DNA of 34,278 nt, taken from a virus (taxonomy: Duplodnaviria; Caudoviricetes). The stretch lies in the IMG/VR virus record IMGVR_UViG_3300012942_000096, positions 1 through 34,278 of that record; one strand, given 5' to 3'. The position numbers and the translations under genes were made by a program. Below are positions 2,955-34,278 of this stretch, one piece after another. Position 1 is the first letter of the stretch. Each line of letters begins with the position of its first letter. The notes below the pieces were generated by a model that was not told the DNA's origin, searched no databases, and saw only the letters and a program-made list of their open reading frames with translations.

Positions 2955-3124
2955 GCACTCCGGTATGGGAGCACCGCATTGCACAAGATGTAAAGGTCGG
3001 AGATGTAACTAAATACGGAAAGGTGAAAAAGAAGGAAAAAGGTACATTTACATTGTTGTTCACATTCACTGATGGAACAACATTGAACCGACACAAGTTC
3101 GCACCGATAGAAGTGGAGTCGTAA
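2951..3124 (+). CDS. Hypothetical protein (57 aa)
   Basis: Read manually: MSTPVWEHRIAQDVKVGDV...; ATGA-coupled and fills the gap. Confidence 0.7.
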   Translation: MSTPVWEHRIAQDVKVGDVTKYGKVKKKEKGTFTLLFTFTDGTTLNRHKFAPIEVES

Positions 3125-3418: not shown

Positions 3419-3434
3419 GAATTAGGTGGAGTCG

Positions 3435-13885: not shown

Positions 13886-13921
13886 CGTCTTAATAAAAAG
13901 AAACCGACAACAGGAGTCGCC

Positions 13922-24754: not shown

Positions 24755-25060
24755 ATGCAGCTTGAAAACAGCCATGGCGGGTATGCTGGTCGGTCGCTAG
24801 TCAATGTGATGCAAGAGACTTTGGACAAAACCTTAGTTGAGTTTGAAGAAATGAATGATAAAGAAGGTGTTGAATTTGATGAAGTAGTTTGTGATCGACT
24901 TCAAGGTATGGTTGCTGGTATGGCAAAAATGATCGGCATTATTCGCGGTACCAGCGTGCAAACCGAAATCCAAGAATCCCGCCAGCGGATTCGTGAGCGT
25001 CAGATGACAAATGAAGAATTAAGTGAAGATATCAACGCGGTAGGAGTCGAAAGAAGGTGA
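24755..25060 (+). CDS. Hypothetical protein
   Basis: SD GGGAG. Confidence 0.75.
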   Translation: MQLENSHGGYAGRSLVNVMQETLDKTLVEFEEMNDKEGVEFDEVVCDRLQGMVAGMAKMIGIIRGTSVQTEIQESRQRIRERQMTNEELSEDINAVGVERR

Positions 25061-28441: not shown

Positions 28442-28444
28442 AGA

Positions 28445-28756
28445 TTTACACTTCTGGGCCGAAAAAGTGTAAAAAAAATCAAGAAGTGTAAATAAGTGTA
28501 AATGCCTCTGACCAGCAGTTATATAGCACTTTTTACTAGATTTACACTTATTTACACTTTTTGGTCAAAACTTCTCTATACGCGCGAGGGGAGATGATGG
28601 GTGGTCGTGTCGTGCGTCTCGCGCCTCGCGTTCCTATTACGAAACTTTGCGGGACAAAAGTGTAAATCGACCAAAAGTGTAAAAACCGCAGGTCAGAGCT
28701 GTTTTAGAACGCTAAAAAGTGTAAATGGGCAGGTCAAAGCCTAAAAAAAGTGTAAA
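28445..28756. repeat. Iteron cluster, putative replication origin
   Basis: Ten copies of AAGTGTAAA (7 forward, 3 reverse) plus CTCTGACCAGC / GCAGGTCAGAG. Confidence 0.8.
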
Positions 28757-28774
28757 TGACTGTAGGATGGGGCC

Positions 28775-29107
28775 ATGGGACACCTGAAGCCGAATAGCAC
28801 GCCGGGTCGCTCGGAGATGAGCCATGGCCGTGGGCGCTACCCCGATCCGAGAAGTGATTTCCAAAGTAATAGGAATCTGGTTTTTCCCCAGGGCGATGAT
28901 GAAAATGACTTGGTGATGGCATACCAGGCGAGTCTGCGAACGGACGCTACCGTTCCAGATGATGTAATTATGCCTGATATGCTTTATGTCAAAGGTAATC
29001 CTGATGCATTTGGTCCTGGGCCGGAATTAGTTCAGGAAAAGCCGAATCTTCCTCGTGGCGGGTATCCTCAACCGTTCTTGCGCTATGGCGTCATTCGTGA
29101 CGATTAA
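28775..29107 (+). CDS. Hypothetical protein, probably leaderless
   Basis: TAGGAT (28763-68), 6 nt, then ATG. Confidence 0.7.
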   Translation: MGHLKPNSTPGRSEMSHGRGRYPDPRSDFQSNRNLVFPQGDDENDLVMAYQASLRTDATVPDDVIMPDMLYVKGNPDAFGPGPELVQEKPNLPRGGYPQPFLRYGVIRDD

Positions 29108-29124
29108 TTAAATTAGGTGGAGTC

Positions 29125-30522
29125 GTGTCGATTCTAGATGATCTTAATCCCCAAGTTGGTCATTCCAACGATCAGGTTAAGATGTGCGCAAGATGTCGTG
29201 AGCAAAAACCTATCGGTTGTTTTAACCGTAATAAAACCACAAAAGATGGTTTGTATGCGTATTGCCGTTCGTGCCAACGTGAAATCCGTAAGGGATATCG
29301 CGAGTCTAAAAAAGATATGTACTTAGTCAGCAATCGTTTTGACGCAATGATTAAGGGTCAACTCGATCTGAATGTTTTAACTATTCAAGAACTTACCGGT
29401 GGTTTCATTGTCTTAGAAGATGGCACAAAACAGGACGTTTCAGTTGCAGGAAAGGCATTTCAAAACAAGTTTGGTCTTGAATTAACTCGTCGTTTAAACA
29501 AGGTTCTACGCAAGGGCTCTAGTCGTGCTCTTGAGGTTATCTATGAAATTATGGATAGCGACCTTGTTGAACCAGCGGACAGATTCAAAGCTGCCCAATG
29601 GTGGACCGAAAGAGTTATGGGCAAAACTCCTGATATCTTGCATATTGGAACGGAGACGCAACCTCATGAATCTATTTTTGAAACTCTTGTCGGCGGTTCT
29701 CGTGAGGATCATCGAGCGAAGCAACTTGGCCAAGCGATTGATGCAGAAGTTGTCGATATTCAAGACGCAAATGTGGTTGAAGACGAAACCGGTTCGCGCA
29801 GTGATAACGAATCCGATCGTTTCGTGGGCGAACAAGTATTGCAACGAAGCGGGCAAGACGTGGATAGCGAAGCATTCGATGGGATGGATGCAGATAATCG
29901 AACAGCCAACGAAACCGATTCGGATACCAGGAACGGATTACGCGGTGGCAGACGTGAAGATCACCGAATTCGTGTCGGAACCGATGTCGTCCAAAACGTT
30001 GGAGGATTGGCAGGAAATCGAACGACAGATAATCGAGCAGAATCTTCCCATTCCGACGTTGGGAGAAACGTTGGAACAGTTTTCGGAGAGGATGAAGCAA
30101 CGGGGTCTGCTCAACAGCAAGGCATCTCTGTACGAGAGCCAATCAATGATGGAAATGCAGGAAAATCAAGCCAAGCAGAACAAGCTGCGAATGCAATCGT
30201 ACTAAAACAACAAGAGAAAAAGGCTCTCCGCAAGCGTTTAAATGATGCAAAAAAGCGCCGTTTTGCTGCGAGAGCGGTCGGGGCCACATCTCTGGACGCA
30301 GCACCGTGGTTGATCGACTGGCGGGTCACTGAGGATGGGCTACGGGCGTGTCTGGTACCGCCGAGCGCGCAAACACCGGCTAAGCTGTCGGTGATCGCAG
30401 CGAATGCACAAGCAACTGATGATGAACAGTTCGTTGCAACGCAAAGAGCTAATATTTTGCAAATGAAAGCTCAAAAGTTGCAAGAAAAAGCACAAAAAGC
30501 GTTAGGAAAAGCAAATGCTTGA
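29125..30522 (+). CDS. Terminase small subunit-like protein with N-terminal Zn finger
   Basis: VEPADRFKAAQWWTERVMGKTP and IDAEVVD motifs reminiscent of actinophage TerS; upstream of TerL. Confidence 0.55.
   Translation: MSILDDLNPQVGHSNDQVKMCARCREQKPIGCFNRNKTTKDGLYAYCRSCQREIRKGYRESKKDMYLVSNRFDAMIKGQLDLNVLTIQELTGGFIVLEDGTKQDVSVAGKAFQNKFGLELTRRLNKVLRKGSSRALEVIYEIMDSDLVEPADRFKAAQWWTERVMGKTPDILHIGTETQPHESIFETLVGGSREDHRAKQLGQAIDAEVVDIQDANVVEDETGSRSDNESDRFVGEQVLQRSGQDVDSEAFDGMDADNRTANETDSDTRNGLRGGRREDHRIRVGTDVVQNVGGLAGNRTTDNRAESSHSDVGRNVGTVFGEDEATGSAQQQGISVREPINDGNAGKSSQAEQAANAIVLKQQEKKALRKRLNDAKKRRFAARAVGATSLDAAPWLIDWRVTEDGLRACLVPPSAQTPAKLSVIAANAQATDDEQFVATQRANILQMKAQKLQEKAQKALGKANA
29771..30205 (+). 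CDS. Nested out-of-frame ORF (144 aa) inside the TerS-like gene
   Basis: MWLKTKPVR...; protein-like composition where the TerS frame looks disordered. Confidence 0.45.
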   Translation: MWLKTKPVRAVITNPIVSWANKYCNEAGKTWIAKHSMGWMQIIEQPTKPIRIPGTDYAVADVKITEFVSEPMSSKTLEDWQEIERQIIEQNLPIPTLGETLEQFSERMKQRGLLNSKASLYESQSMMEMQENQAKQNKLRMQSY

Positions 30523-30760
30523 GGCGAAAACCTTCACGGCAGTGACTACGCCGACGCTTTTGTCTTTGCCTAATGCGGCTCTGATTAGAAATAACGGTAC
30601 TGATACTGTCTATTTCGGTGGGCCAAATGTTACTGCGGACACTACCGCCACTGGTGGATTTCAGTTAGCTTCGGGCGAAAAACTTCAAGTTAACGATGCA
30701 GAAGACGTATATTTCGTTATTGCCTCTGGAAAATCCGCAACAATCACTGTTTTGAGCTAG
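30515..30760 (+). CDS. Small beta-rich protein, possibly virion-associated
   Basis: IRNNGTDTVYFGGPNVT...GFQLASGE; SD AGGA. Confidence 0.75.
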   Translation: MLEAKTFTAVTTPTLLSLPNAALIRNNGTDTVYFGGPNVTADTTATGGFQLASGEKLQVNDAEDVYFVIASGKSATITVLS

Positions 30761-30769
30761 GAGATTCAA

Positions 30770-31027
30770 ATGGCTAAGCGCATGAAGAAGATGTACGACG
30801 GTCGCAATGTTGCGACTCGTCCGATTCCGGTGATTGTGGATGAATCTGAACGTCGTGCAATTGCAGCAGCAGCGAGCGATTCCAAGCCTTTGGGCGATGT
30901 TGTGCAAATGCCTTCTGGGCCGCGTGCCAAGGCTGCTGGATCGGGCGTTTTGGGCAAGCCTGTTCGTGGCGGTGCTCGCATTAAGGCCGGTAACTATAAC
31001 CCAATTGGCGTTGACGGCAACCGCTAA
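30770..31027 (+). CDS. Hypothetical protein
   Basis: SD AGGAG. Confidence 0.75.
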   Translation: MAKRMKKMYDGRNVATRPIPVIVDESERRAIAAAASDSKPLGDVVQMPSGPRAKAAGSGVLGKPVRGGARIKAGNYNPIGVDGNR

Positions 31028-31065
31028 ATAAAAATTTAAATAGAGTTGTTATGATGATCTCGGTG
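31016..31065 (+). repeat. 50-bp perfect direct repeat, copy 1 (contains a promoter)
   Basis: GGCAACCGCTAAATAAAAATTTAAATAGAGTTGTTATGATGATCTCGGTG. Confidence 0.97.
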
Positions 31066-31091
31066 AATCATGGGAACTGCGGGAATGAACG

Positions 31092-31394
31092 GTGATGGAT
31101 GACGACGAAGACGGCCAGGGATATGACCTGGTGATGCCGTTCCTGCCGGTGCAGTCGAACGGCGGTCCACACAGCGACGATGCGTACGTTGCTGGGTACG
31201 AGATGGGGCTGCTTGACGCGCAGTTGGGCAAGAGTGAGTTCGAGCAGGGGCGCTCGATACACGCCGAGAATCGGGAGCAAGCCGACCTGATCGCCATGCG
31301 CCACGGCTATATATCTGAGTTCACCAGCGACGACGGCACCGGCTGGGTCTGCATGAAGGTGCGCCCACTCACGTCGAATATCAGGTTTACGTAA
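31092..31394 (+). CDS. GC-rich acquired hypothetical protein
   Basis: 100 aa with high-GC codons, between the direct repeats. Confidence 0.75.
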   Translation: MMDDDEDGQGYDLVMPFLPVQSNGGPHSDDAYVAGYEMGLLDAQLGKSEFEQGRSIHAENREQADLIAMRHGYISEFTSDDGTGWVCMKVRPLTSNIRFT

Positions 31395-31494
31395 GAGCAA
31401 AAGAATATCGGCATGGGAGAGATGACCTTGTGGGATCACGTCTGGCCGTGGCTGCGTCACCCGCTCAGCACGGGCCGGGCCGATAAGTGCCCCT

Positions 31495-31544
31495 GGCAAC
31501 CGCTAAATAAAAATTTAAATAGAGTTGTTATGATGATCTCGGTG
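31495..31544 (+). repeat. 50-bp perfect direct repeat, copy 2 (extended -10 TGT-TATGAT at 31526-34)
   Basis: Identical to 31016-31065. Confidence 0.97.
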
Positions 31545-31625
31545 TCGCCGGTCACACGGTCTCATAACGACACCATTCCCCGCGCACGGTACTGACGACT
31601 CCCCGTTGCTGCGGGGATTTGGTGT
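31541..31625 (+). ncRNA. Candidate two-hairpin small RNA (RNA-2)
   Basis: Predicted +1 at G31541 coincides with stem GGTGTCG/CGACACC; second stem TCCCCGC..ACGG/CCGT..GCGGGGA. Confidence 0.6.
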
Positions 31626-31660
31626 AAAAGAAGACAAATAACATGAAATGAGAAGGTTTC

Positions 31661-31819
31661 ATGCCAGTACGTGTCACGATTCTTCTAGAAGACAATATTG
31701 AAGACCTGTCAGCTGTTGACATTGCCGAAGATGTACGAGAGCATTTCCACTTGAAACCAGCTTCGGTTAAAGTATCGAAATTGACAATGCGGCAATACAA
31801 AAAGCTTATGGAGTCCTAA
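31661..31819 (+). CDS. Hypothetical protein (52 aa)
   Basis: Read manually: MPVRVTILLED...; GAAGGT SD. Confidence 0.6.
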   Translation: MPVRVTILLEDNIEDLSAVDIAEDVREHFHLKPASVKVSKLTMRQYKKLMES

Positions 31820-31971
31820 TGCCTCGGCATATGTGTCCTCGTTGTAAGCAACCGTCAAACATGATTTGGGATGGCAAAAAGTGGATTTGCCCTAATCCTG
31901 ATTGCAGCTATAAAGGAGTCGATCAACTTGCCCAGCATGAACCAGATAATCAGGGGCAACCGAATGCCTAA
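31819..31971 (+). CDS. Small Zn-ribbon protein (50 aa)
   Basis: Read manually: CPRC...WICPNPDC; TAATG coupling. Confidence 0.65.
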   Translation: MPRHMCPRCKQPSNMIWDGKKWICPNPDCSYKGVDQLAQHEPDNQGQPNA

Positions 31972-32308
31972 AATCGACGGTATCGACAAAGCGGATATGT
32001 TTTACGATGAAACTCCGCGTGTTCGCTTTGAATATCAGATGAAAGTGAACTGCTATCAAGCACCTTTCGTTTTTCATTACTCAACTGTGCTTGATGGCGT
32101 TGATGATGATATGAAAATCAAGACGCTACATACCGAAGCACAAGTTGGAATGTATAACGCATTGCAGCGCATTTGGCAAAATAATGAAGATGCTGAATTC
32201 GTCGCGTGGCGTTGTTATGACGATAAAGGCGCATTGCTCGAAGAATCCGATGTGCTCTCGATTTATGTCAAAGATACAGGCGAGGTTCGCGCAATTACGC
32301 CCGCATGA
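31964..32308 (+). CDS. Hypothetical protein
   Basis: Track ORF 31871..32308; ATG 31964 preferred. Confidence 0.7.
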   Translation: MPKIDGIDKADMFYDETPRVRFEYQMKVNCYQAPFVFHYSTVLDGVDDDMKIKTLHTEAQVGMYNALQRIWQNNEDAEFVAWRCYDDKGALLEESDVLSIYVKDTGEVRAITPA

Positions 32309-32349
32309 GTAGACAGCACATCATAAGTCGTATATCATCTGATGTATGA
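32305..32349 (+). other. 14-codon mini-ORF, possible original 5' end of terL
   Basis: MSRQHIISRISSDV*; ATGA-coupled at both ends; same frame as terL. Confidence 0.45.
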
Positions 32350-32813
32350 ATACTGAGCAAACAATAAAATGTACTCAGTGTAAACAATTTAAACTGATTT
32401 CTGAATTTTATCCAGATAAGCGCCGTGTTCGGAATTATGGTGTTTCTTCTGTCTGTAAGGCATGTCATAAGATAAATAATAAGAAGTATTATGAAAATAA
32501 TCGCGATCGTATTAAAGAGCAACAGCGTGAACGGCATAAGTTATATTCAGAGCCGGGAAAAATTGTTGTTCGTACTATTCTAGAGGGAAATTATTGTGTC
32601 GATTGTAAAACCACCGATTGGCGTGTATTAGAATTCGATCATGTTCGTGGTGAAAAATTAGGCAACATATGTCAACTAATGTATTTGCCTGATCTTGATA
32701 AATTAATAGAAGAAATTAAAAAGTGTGATATTGTTTGTGCTAACTGTCATAAATTAAGAACCTTCGAGCGCGCTCAGTCGTGGAGATTCGTGCAAGTAGG
32801 TGATTTAAATTAA
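32346..32813 (+). CDS. HNH endonuclease with N-terminal Zn finger
   Basis: CTQC..CKAC; CVDC...LEFDH...CDIVCANCH; AT-rich. Confidence 0.9.
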   Translation: MNTEQTIKCTQCKQFKLISEFYPDKRRVRNYGVSSVCKACHKINNKKYYENNRDRIKEQQRERHKLYSEPGKIVVRTILEGNYCVDCKTTDWRVLEFDHVRGEKLGNICQLMYLPDLDKLIEEIKKCDIVCANCHKLRTFERAQSWRFVQVGDLN

Positions 32814-34278
32814 TAAATGGGACGTCTTAGATGCGAATTATCATGATTCGCAAGGAAAAGTACGTAAGGTTTTTGATCCCCATTCTGTTCAATTAAAACT
32901 TGCTGAATGTATGGCACGCTTTCTTATTGCGTGTTGTGGTCGTCGTCTCGGAAAATCCTATTGGATCGCGCATGAATTCATGCCATATGTCTTCTTGTCG
33001 CGCAAAATGGCAACGTGGTTAAAAGATGAACAAAAACGTATGGAGTTTTGGTCGGTGGGTCCGACCTACTCAGACTCCGAAAAGCCTTTCCGTGTTTTTT
33101 ACAATAAATGCGTCGCATTGGGTATACCATTTGACAAACCAGGAACATATTATTCTCAAGAATCGGGAAACATGACCGTTTCGCTATGGGATGGTGCGTT
33201 CATCTATAGCGCTAAATCGGCTCAATATCCCGAACGCCTCGTTGGGGAAGGTTTGTGGGGCGTGCATCTTGAAGAAGCTGCAAAACTAAAAGAAATTGTC
33301 TGGAAACAGATGATTCAGCCTACATTGGGTGACTTCGACGGTTTTGCTAAGTTTTCCACTACGCCAGAAGGCAAAAACTGGCTGTATCGTGAATTTCGCA
33401 ATGCTCAAACCGCACCAAACTGGGCGGCATTTCGTTTTCCTTCGTGGCACAACCCATGGGTTTATAAAACAGAAACTAATGATGCGCATGTTCGCGCAAT
33501 GATAAAAATTATGGCAGAACATCCCGGTGAAACACCGTTTGATATTGCTAAAAAACTGAATTTGGTGATTGATGAACAAGTCTTGCAGATGGCTAATGAC
33601 AATACGATTCCACTTTTTCAGCAAGAGTATGGAGCTGAGTTTACCGATTTCGTCGGAAAAGTGTTTAAAGATTTTGATGAAGACGTTCACACACGCCCAC
33701 TTTCATTCAATCCGAAATGGGAGACTGTGGCTGCGGTTGACTATGGTTATCGTAACCCCAACGTGTGGTTGCTCATCCAAATCGGACCCTGGGGAGAAAT
33801 AAATGTCATTGATGAGTTCTACCAAAGGGACCTCACTCCCTCCGAATTTGCCAACGAGATTTTGCGACGGGACTTGTGTCCCGATTCTTGTTCAGAATTC
33901 TTCCCCGACCCTGCATCTCCTGGGAGCACTGCGGAAATCGAAAATATATTCCGTAAAGCTGGGAAGCGCGTTCGTTCTAGAGGCCACACCGGCGGCGAAA
34001 TTAATGATCGGCTCAACCTCATTAGACTTGCCTTGCGAGACAGAATCACCGATAACGATAAAAGCCAACCGCTGTGGGTAGCTAAATATCCTAATGCTGC
34101 ACGAGGCGATAGACCGTTGGATATGCGTCGTCCTCGTTTGATGATTAATACAAAATGCGTTAACACGATTTACGAATTTTCTGAATACCGTTATCCAGAA
34201 AAGAAAGATGAAGAAGCAGAAACCAGTACGAAAAACTACGAAACACCGATGAAAAAAGACGACCACACGCCAGAAGCG
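32809..34278 (+). CDS. terL: Terminase large subunit (3'-truncated by the window; start non-canonical)
   Basis: Read manually: PHSVQ, CGRRLGKS, VHLEEAAK, STTPEG, AVDYGY, KDDH; frame open from 32809. Confidence 0.93.
   Translation, partial: MNKWDVLDANYHDSQGKVRKVFDPHSVQLKLAECMARFLIACCGRRLGKSYWIAHEFMPYVFLSRKMATWLKDEQKRMEFWSVGPTYSDSEKPFRVFYNKCVALGIPFDKPGTYYSQESGNMTVSLWDGAFIYSAKSAQYPERLVGEGLWGVHLEEAAKLKEIVWKQMIQPTLGDFDGFAKFSTTPEGKNWLYREFRNAQTAPNWAAFRFPSWHNPWVYKTETNDAHVRAMIKIMAEHPGETPFDIAKKLNLVIDEQVLQMANDNTIPLFQQEYGAEFTDFVGKVFKDFDEDVHTRPLSFNPKWETVAAVDYGYRNPNVWLLIQIGPWGEINVIDEFYQRDLTPSEFANEILRRDLCPDSCSEFFPDPASPGSTAEIENIFRKAGKRVRSRGHTGGEINDRLNLIRLALRDRITDNDKSQPLWVAKYPNAARGDRPLDMRRPRLMINTKCVNTIYEFSEYRYPEKKDEEAETSTKNYETPMKKDDHTPEA

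What the first reader, a model, noticed from the sequence alone, without database searches (positions are those of the whole stretch)
31526..31625. RNA-2: dedicated promoter, initiator-anticodon-like loop and anti-GGAGTCG loop
An extended -10 (TGT-TATGAT) puts +1 on the first base of the stem GGTGTCG/CGACACC. Its loop ends in CTCATAA, the sequence of the tRNA-fMet anticodon loop. GGTCTCATAAC also complements 25288-98, across an internal in-frame ATG of the NUMOD4 gene. The second loop TACTGACGACTCC (31590-602) complements GAGTCGTCA 25651-59, GGAGTCGT at 3115, 25616 and 29119, and GGAGTCG at 3428, 13913 and 25043. ACACCA (31570-75) can alternatively pair with TGGTGT (31620-25), a potential conformational switch.
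Basis: partly seen in the sequence, partly recalled or inferred. Interest (0 to 1): 0.78.

Follow-up and report, generated by a model that had tools for sequence, protein, structure and literature searches.

The report
Phage hairpin RNA against start sites
In a soil phage related to mycobacteriophages Patience and Barnyard, a predicted two-hairpin RNA behind the capsid-accessory gene carries a loop complementary to a word that this phage over-uses, partly at gene starts, so it would likely damp the translation of some of the phage's own genes, a possible partner for the unexplained start-associated sequences of mycobacteriophages.

Summary
Wrong or chance: the 11-nt HNH-gene match (195 of 342 windows do as well), the initiator-tRNA loop, and the GGTGTCG/CGACACC stem as main fold (P 0.0007 in read-through RNA; 31570 reads C in both covering runs). 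The promoter is not unique: it lies in a perfect 50-bp repeat flanking a freshly captured foreign 429-bp piece. Right: a structured RNA ending in a terminator-like hairpin (31577-617, then UUUGGUGU) whose loop holds the contig's only CGACTCC, while GGAGTCG occurs 10 times on the coding strand (1.5 expected), 3-5 of them at starts. Relatives carry a covarying two-hairpin RNA at the same place (16 of 17 loci), but its models do not score this element. Loop-versus-own-start complementarity recurs in Konstantine/Predator, weakly in Patience, not in four others. In cluster K phages the single reversed start-associated sequence sits exactly in a hairpin loop (3 of 5 hairpins examined), without covariation in the other two. 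Best reading: a terminator-ended RNA with an anti-RBS loop (0.45), against a purely cis 3' hairpin (0.33). No expression data.

The parts
30770..31027 (+). capsid-accessory gene, homolog of Patience gp4; its stop is repeated at 31504-06 inside repeat copy 2
   Evidence: tblastn to Patience/Barnyard/DrLupo/Konstantine capsid accessory proteins, 41-58%; phrog_12672
31016..31065 (+). 50-bp direct repeat, copy 1 (end of gp4, AT-rich tract, extended -10)
   Evidence: 100% identical to 31495-544
31066..31494 (+). recently captured foreign piece (60% GC against 46%), one 100-aa gene plus a truncated gene start
   Evidence: 31073-473 differs at 1 of 401 letters from a 45.9-kb contig of run X4, 31475-94 matches that contig on the other strand; GC; homologs in other actinophages and prophages
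31495..31544 (+). 50-bp direct repeat, copy 2
31526..31534 (+). candidate extended -10 promoter TGT-TATGAT, predicted +1 near 31541; in read-through RNA also the 5' arm of hairpin 1
   Evidence: sequence; similar words in other gaps; pairing P 0.71-0.98; no -35, not listed by the sigma-70 scan
31570..31625 (+). hairpin 2: core stem 31577-83/31611-17 followed directly by UUUGGUGU (31618-25), terminator-like; ACACCA can pair back with the tail
   Evidence: pair probabilities 0.92-1.0; tail 5 of 8 U, relatives 3-7 of 8; shorter version listed by the terminator scan
31590..31602 (+). apical loop UACUGACGACUCC; seed CGACUCC 31596-602 is the only reverse copy of GGAGTCG
3115..3121 (+). GGAGTCG, 9 nt before ATG 3128 (candidate target)
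3428..3434 (+). GGAGTCG abutting GTG 3435 (start chosen by me after seeing the word); shares 15 nt with the 29119 site
13913..13919 (+). GGAGTCG before GTG 13922 of a 47-codon ORF (start chosen by me; gene uncertain)
25043..25049 (+). GGAGTCG, 10 nt before GTG 25057 of the HNH-family gene
29119..29125 (+). GGAGTCG overlapping the GTG start of the small terminase gene, upstream in the same operon
31642..31663 (+). weak third hairpin that would bury the ATG of ORF 31661, SD-like AGAAGG in its loop

Best explanation
The element is a predicted two-hairpin RNA at the 3' end of the phage's capsid-accessory transcript, likely also made as an ~85-nt RNA from the extended -10, that would end at a terminator-type hairpin and likely uses its open loop (CGACUCC) to pair with GGAGUCG at ribosome-binding sites of several of the phage's own genes, lowering their translation. 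Shown: position, repeat, fold prediction, uniqueness of the reverse copy, enrichment of the word. Inferred: transcription, termination at ~31625 with some read-through, pairing in trans (7-8 bp, about -13 kcal/mol), repression, and late timing.
For: Word 10 vs 1.5 expected, rank 5; 6 inside genes vs 1.4 under codon shuffling, P 0.0025 (includes copies that are also SDs); 5 of 12 GGAG-type SDs continue with TCG on my start list, 3 of 58 starts with automatic calls; given a UCC loop end, a random flank reaches 5 starts in 0.4% of trials. Stem followed directly by a U-rich tail like the relatives'. Konstantine's loop 1 is the complement of CGGACA at 16 of 69 starts (rank 3), Predator 8 of 62; own-loop enrichment x4.6 and x2.8, Patience x2.2 p 0.02; this window's loops are not enriched at starts of the five named relatives. 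In Anaya the single reversed SAS is the apical loop of a two-hairpin intergenic element, likewise Nutello and OkiRoe; 1 of 200 random 8-mers is as unpaired. C-rich loops of 6C sRNA bind mRNAs without chaperones in mycobacteria (PMC6486639, abstract).
Against: No RNA data. Two of the five starts were picked after seeing the word; with automatic starts the loop enrichment is 4 of 58, p 0.3. At least 4 of 10 copies lie mid-gene in the Gly-Val frame with no new start (14638, 16819, 20030) or before no ORF (25616). No loop-start match in G001 (7/107) or G002 (5/97), weak in DrLupo (7/81) and Barnyard (8/80) although their loops are conserved. Family loop 2 has no conserved target at terS, gp4, next-gene or terL starts. 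In Hammy and Amgine the loop drifted while the SAS stayed GGGATAGGAG, so no covariation; no reversed SAS in the TM4 and Pixie stretches read. None of 16 relatives has an extended -10 just upstream of its element. The seed is short and its CUCC is generic anti-SD.
Confidence: 0.45

Rival explanations
1. A purely cis 3' structure: terminator and 3'-protecting hairpins that uncouple the abundant capsid-accessory message from the terminase, the lineage's own version of the family element; the GGAGTCG match is coincidence and GGAGTCG is simply a shared RBS word.
For: 16 of 17 relatives' loci carry a two-hairpin element right behind gp4, hairpin 2 covaries (10 of 13 pairs changed on both sides, 98% paired; alignment fitted to the model), with U-rich tails and extended -10s downstream in 6 of 16. 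In read-through RNA the promoter and the anticodon-like word pair with each other. Four relatives show no clear loop-start match.
Against: Does not explain why the only reverse copy of an over-used word is in the loop, nor the Konstantine and cluster K parallels; does not explain conserved loop sequences. Mycobacterial RNA polymerase needs a U-tract (PMC3993855, abstract) and this tail is imperfect.
Confidence: 0.33
2. A 5' leader or attenuator of the lineage-specific operon 31661-32308, transcribed from the extended -10; hairpin 2 limits read-through and hairpin 3 buries the first ATG.
For: Promoter precedes the hairpins here, unlike relatives; weak hairpin over ATG 31661; family models do not score the element, so it may have arrived with these genes.
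Against: The proposed switch leaves the terminator core unchanged; the one homolog of ORF 31661 (P0002) has an unrelated upstream frame and no context could be fetched.
Confidence: 0.11
3. GGAGTCG is a binding site for a phage protein (on DNA or RNA); the loop copy is one more site in reverse, or a decoy on an antisense transcript.
For: Hairpin 2 has only Watson-Crick pairs and folds on both strands (-44.9 vs -42.1 kcal/mol); copies inside genes; Pope et al. leave RNA or protein open for SAS (PMC3203893, passages).
Against: 10:1 orientation bias; the family element is clearly plus-strand (G-U pairs on + in most); no candidate protein identified.
Confidence: 0.09
4. Initiator-tRNA anticodon mimic, or antisense to the internal ATG of the HNH gene.
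For: CTCATAA occurs once on + and equals the tRNA-fMet anticodon loop (recalled).
Against: Not a 7-nt loop on a 5-bp stem in any fold; paired in read-through RNA; no tRNA-like hit; 11-nt match is chance; enclosing stem broken by C31570; absent in relatives.
Confidence: 0.02

Closest known systems
6C sRNA of Actinobacteria (PMC6486639, abstract read)
   Same: hairpins whose pyrimidine-rich loops would pair directly with G-rich mRNA sites, in a mycobacterial-type host
   Different: phage-encoded, own genes as targets, one CGACUCC loop instead of C-runs, no Rfam match
Start-associated sequences (SAS) of cluster K mycobacteriophages (PMC3203893, passages read)
   Same: a short word repeated at starts in one orientation, with a single reversed copy away from starts; partner (RNA or protein) left open there
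   Different: 7-nt word, only 3-5 starts, no ESAS repeats seen; different phage family
Unnamed two-hairpin element behind gp4 in Patience/Barnyard/Konstantine-like phages (found here)
   Same: same place once the 479-bp insert is discounted, two hairpins, GC stem with U-rich tail, UCC in a loop; host phage nests inside this clade
   Different: loops GUCYGG and YCCRC not kept, arm polarity reversed, promoter upstream; models score -0.4 bits
Intrinsic terminators
   Same: GC-rich stem directly followed by a U-rich 8-mer
   Different: tail 5 of 8 U, long 13-nt loop, tail can pair back
P1/P7 C4 and P4 CI RNAs; LhrC and RsaE UCCC-loop sRNAs (all recalled, no call)
   Same: loop-mediated pairing in trans, for C4/CI with phage's own transcripts
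   Different: no sequence or Rfam match; lytic late context instead of immunity

Membership tests
Any Rfam family (6C, C4, tRNA-like included) | covariance-model match | tested here: not met
   no hit at 31526-625 at E<=1; none at the relatives' elements in 10 loci at E<=5
6C sRNA | two loops with runs of six or more C | tested here: not met
   loops GUCACA or CGCCGGUC, and UACUGACGACUCC
6C-like anti-RBS sRNA (works like) | open loop complementary to RBS words | tested here: met
6C-like anti-RBS sRNA (works like) | expressed RNA that represses targets by pairing | not testable with these tools
   no RNA holder listed; needs bench work
gp4-downstream two-hairpin element of Patience-like phages | position directly behind the capsid-accessory stop | tested here: met
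   20 nt behind the stop repeated at 31504-06; relatives 6-90 nt, two with an inserted gene
gp4-downstream two-hairpin element of Patience-like phages | loops GUCYGG and YCCRC, model score | tested here: not met
   R1 and R2 give no hit; best -0.4 bits
gp4-downstream two-hairpin element of Patience-like phages | sequence homology by pairwise alignment | tested here: inconclusive
   z 4.1 to L047, about 2 to L035 and L043, under 1.1 for the other 12 of 15; relatives among themselves median 2.75
Intrinsic terminator | GC stem followed at once by a U-rich 8-mer | tested here: inconclusive
   UUUGGUGU, 5 of 8 U, within relatives' range 3-7; 3' end not mapped
tRNA-fMet mimic | 7-nt anticodon loop on a 5-bp stem, cloverleaf | tested here: not met
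SAS-type word | one orientation, at starts, single reversed copy | tested here: inconclusive
   10:1 orientation and one reversed copy met; only 3-5 of 10 at starts

The most novel reading that the evidence does not exclude
Actinophages encode anti-start RNAs: a hairpin loop complementary to each phage's own start-associated word (CGACUCC here, UUGUCCG in Konstantine/Predator, CCUCCUAUCC in cluster K) that shuts down a regulon of early genes in trans, the missing partner of mycobacteriophage start-associated sequences.
Probability: 0.3. Interest if true: 0.85.

Novelty: new variant of a known kind. Interest (0 to 1): 0.62.

Why it matters
The function of mycobacteriophage start-associated sequences was left open when they were described (PMC3203893). 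This finding names a candidate partner RNA and its loop in three phage groups, two of them culturable on M. smegmatis, so a loop mutant and a compensatory mutant would settle it. It also exposes a covarying two-hairpin RNA in Patience-like phages that Rfam lacks, and a gene capture caught with a duplicated promoter and two coexisting left junctions.

Tried and rejected
No RNA holder listed for 29000-34278: nothing on expression. No DNA homolog of 31480-700 among phage records; 12 exact hits of the 15-nt loop pattern in viral contigs do not extend. A 25/28 antisense match to L003's portal gene was dropped: the same codons in Patience differ and the window's own portal is not on the contig. Kissing of loop 1 with loop 2 (GU..GG with CCAC in relatives) was considered; two different registers fit the window and L055 and L135 break it, so undecided. 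Loop 2 against terminase starts is explained by the fixed Lys-Trp codons. Hammerhead reading of CUGACGA rejected by eye (no GAAA after stem II) and by Rfam. No relatives for ORF 31871-32308; the insert is not in plasmids. R2 found no clear element in 75 more distant terminase loci L057-L131 with default filters. Earlier findings: none. Literature: searches listed no paper describing this RNA; Fremin 2023 supplements gave no hit in 6 files, files 1, 2 and 4 were not searched, so prior listing there is not excluded. Preprint 10.64898/2026.07.01.735769 (abstract) was not relevant.

Full report
Context. The window is a 34-kb fragment of an actinophage related to Patience, Barnyard and Konstantine: gp1-like gene, small terminase, capsid-accessory gene (30770-31027), then the finding, three short unknown ORFs, an HNH gene and the large terminase. 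By terminase tree it nests (99/98) among L052, DrLupo, Barnyard, L028, L032, Konstantine and Predator. Patience gp4 is a structural protein bridging capsid hexamers (PMC11965321, passages); the Patience paper notes no strongly predicted SigA promoters and its main text has no hit for noncoding or terminator (PMC4324244, passages).

The observation. The region folds better than shuffles (z -2.6 for 31526-660; -4.0 for 31526-626). Both public runs that cover 31570 read C there (X1 may be the source, X2 is one shallow contig), which breaks the stem. Neither form touches the core stem 31577-83/31611-17, so it is no on/off switch.

The promoter and the repeat. TGTTATGAT lies in a perfect 50-bp repeat around 429 bp of 60% GC DNA. 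31073-473 differs at 1 of 401 letters from a 45.9-kb contig of run X4, and 31475-94 matches that contig on the other strand 73 nt further on. X1 holds a second left junction that joins 31038 to the insert by another path; its 7 changed and 11 missing letters fit, by my hand comparison, the donor's own upstream letters. X2's contig stops matching exactly at 31495 with 6 unlaid letters, a hint, not proof, of an empty allele. Repeat copy 2 contains gp4's last codons and stop, so before the capture the hairpins began 20 nt behind gp4. The -10 is plausible: TGTTAGGGT and TGTTAAGGT sit in two other gaps, but TGNTANNNT occurs 28 times on + and there is no -35.

Relatives. Behind gp4, relatives carry two hairpins with loops GUCYGG and YCCRC and a U-rich tail. 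A model from 4 sequences found it in 16 of 17 loci (4 of them training; L047 only at E 0.11; L003 has no gap), a second model in L135 and three L052-like loci of 7 more searched. Hairpin 2 covaries: 10 of 13 pairs change on both sides, 98% of cells pair (alignment fitted to the model), and G-U pairs point to the + strand. Rfam has no such family. Neither model scores the window's element (best -0.4 bits) and pairwise similarity is inconclusive. It is a positional analogue, perhaps a far-diverged member. Its core stem is followed at once by UUUGGUGU, 5 of 8 U against 3-7 in 17 relatives; mycobacterial polymerase needs a U-tract but tolerates imperfect ones (PMC3993855, abstract).

The loop. GGAGTCG occurs 10 times on + and once on -, that copy being the open loop; 1.5 expected, rank 5 among 7-mers. 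On my list of 57 starts, 5 of 12 GGAG-type SDs continue with TCG, but two of those starts (3435, 13922) I chose after seeing the word; automatic calls give 3 of 58 and a non-significant loop enrichment (4 of 58). Three copies are mid-gene in a Gly-Val frame and one precedes no ORF. Hybrids are about -13 kcal/mol. In relatives, the complement of loop 2 is not enriched, but loop 1 of Konstantine is the complement of CGGACA at 16 of 69 starts and of Predator at 8 of 62. In the cross-table of 8 RNAs against 8 genomes, own-start enrichment is x2.8 (window, hand starts), x4.6, x2.8 (Konstantine, Predator: one lineage), x2.2 (Patience, p 0.02), x1.8 and x1.6 (DrLupo, Barnyard, not significant), x1.1 and x0.9 (G001, G002, automatic starts); conditioned on a UCC core the window and Konstantine matches each have about 0.4% chance. 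Named genomes other than Patience were read in part (50-54 kb of about 70).

An outside parallel. Pope et al. describe cluster K SAS as one-directional, with a single reversed copy in four K1 phages and an unknown RNA or protein partner (PMC3203893, passages). In Anaya that copy is exactly the apical loop of the second of two intergenic hairpins; the stretch is matched in 170 records, 135 over most of its length. Nutello and OkiRoe (the latter before the small terminase gene) show the same loop; 1 of 200 random 8-mers is as unpaired. Against: in Hammy and Amgine the loop drifted to other C-rich sequences while the SAS did not change, and the TM4 and Pixie stretches read hold no reversed copy.

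Mechanism. Most likely the late gp1-terS-gp4 message, and perhaps an 85-nt RNA from the -10, ends at hairpin 2; the stable 3' piece presents CGACUCC and would pair with GGAGUCG at a few RBSs, small terminase included, as 6C loops do (PMC6486639, abstract). Every functional step is inferred. I give this 0.45, a cis-only 3' structure 0.33, a leader of the 31661 operon 0.11, a protein site 0.09, tRNA mimicry 0.02; the first two share the terminator, which I hold at about 0.75.

Novelty. It fails membership in Rfam families and in the relatives' element by model, but works like C-rich-loop anti-RBS RNAs. My ten paper searches listed no description of it; Weinberg 2017 was seen as passages only and three Fremin 2023 supplement files could not be searched. 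New variant of a known kind, interest 0.62; the general anti-SAS reading has about 0.3 probability and would deserve 0.85.

Noticed in passing
window 31016-31544: Very recent gene capture: 429-bp foreign piece (400 of 401 letters as in a contig of run X4) with a fold-back 20-mer, a 50-bp target duplication that copies the promoter in front of the captured gene, and a second left junction in run X1; looks like polymerase template switching.
   Followed up: partly
L001:2356-2432, L004, L005, L006, L038, L028, L030, L032, L035, L040, L043, L045, L046, L047, L052, L055, L135: Covarying two-hairpin RNA with conserved loops GUCYGG and YCCRC behind the capsid-accessory gene of Patience-like phages; not in Rfam.
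   Followed up: yes
L157:19800-19930 (Anaya), L160, L161, L162, L163: Conserved two-hairpin intergenic element of cluster K phages whose loop is the reversed SAS, or a C-rich variant; Rfam not run on it.
   Followed up: partly
L045:3274-3761; L047, L052, L055 between gp4 and terminase: The gap is an insertion hot spot; in L045 an ORF plus the RNA element is flanked by a perfect 15-bp direct repeat 473 bp apart.
   Followed up: partly
window 32806-32820: Large terminase frame opens after an in-frame stop with ATT-AAT-AAA-TGG where relatives have ATG or GTG, suggesting an ATT start; a sigma-70-like promoter at 32310-38 would make the HNH gene leaderless.
   Followed up: no
window, Patience, DrLupo, Konstantine genome-wide: TGGCGGG/CCCGCCA is strongly over-represented on both strands (13+10 here, 32+18 in Patience, 23+14 in DrLupo).
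   Followed up: no
window 28443-28757: Origin-like region: AGTGTAA repeats and a 24-bp inverted repeat after the primase gene.
   Followed up: no
window 3420-3434 and 29111-29125: ATTAGGT occurs 5 times, all near starts; two starts share the 15-mer AATTAGGTGGAGTCG.
   Followed up: partly
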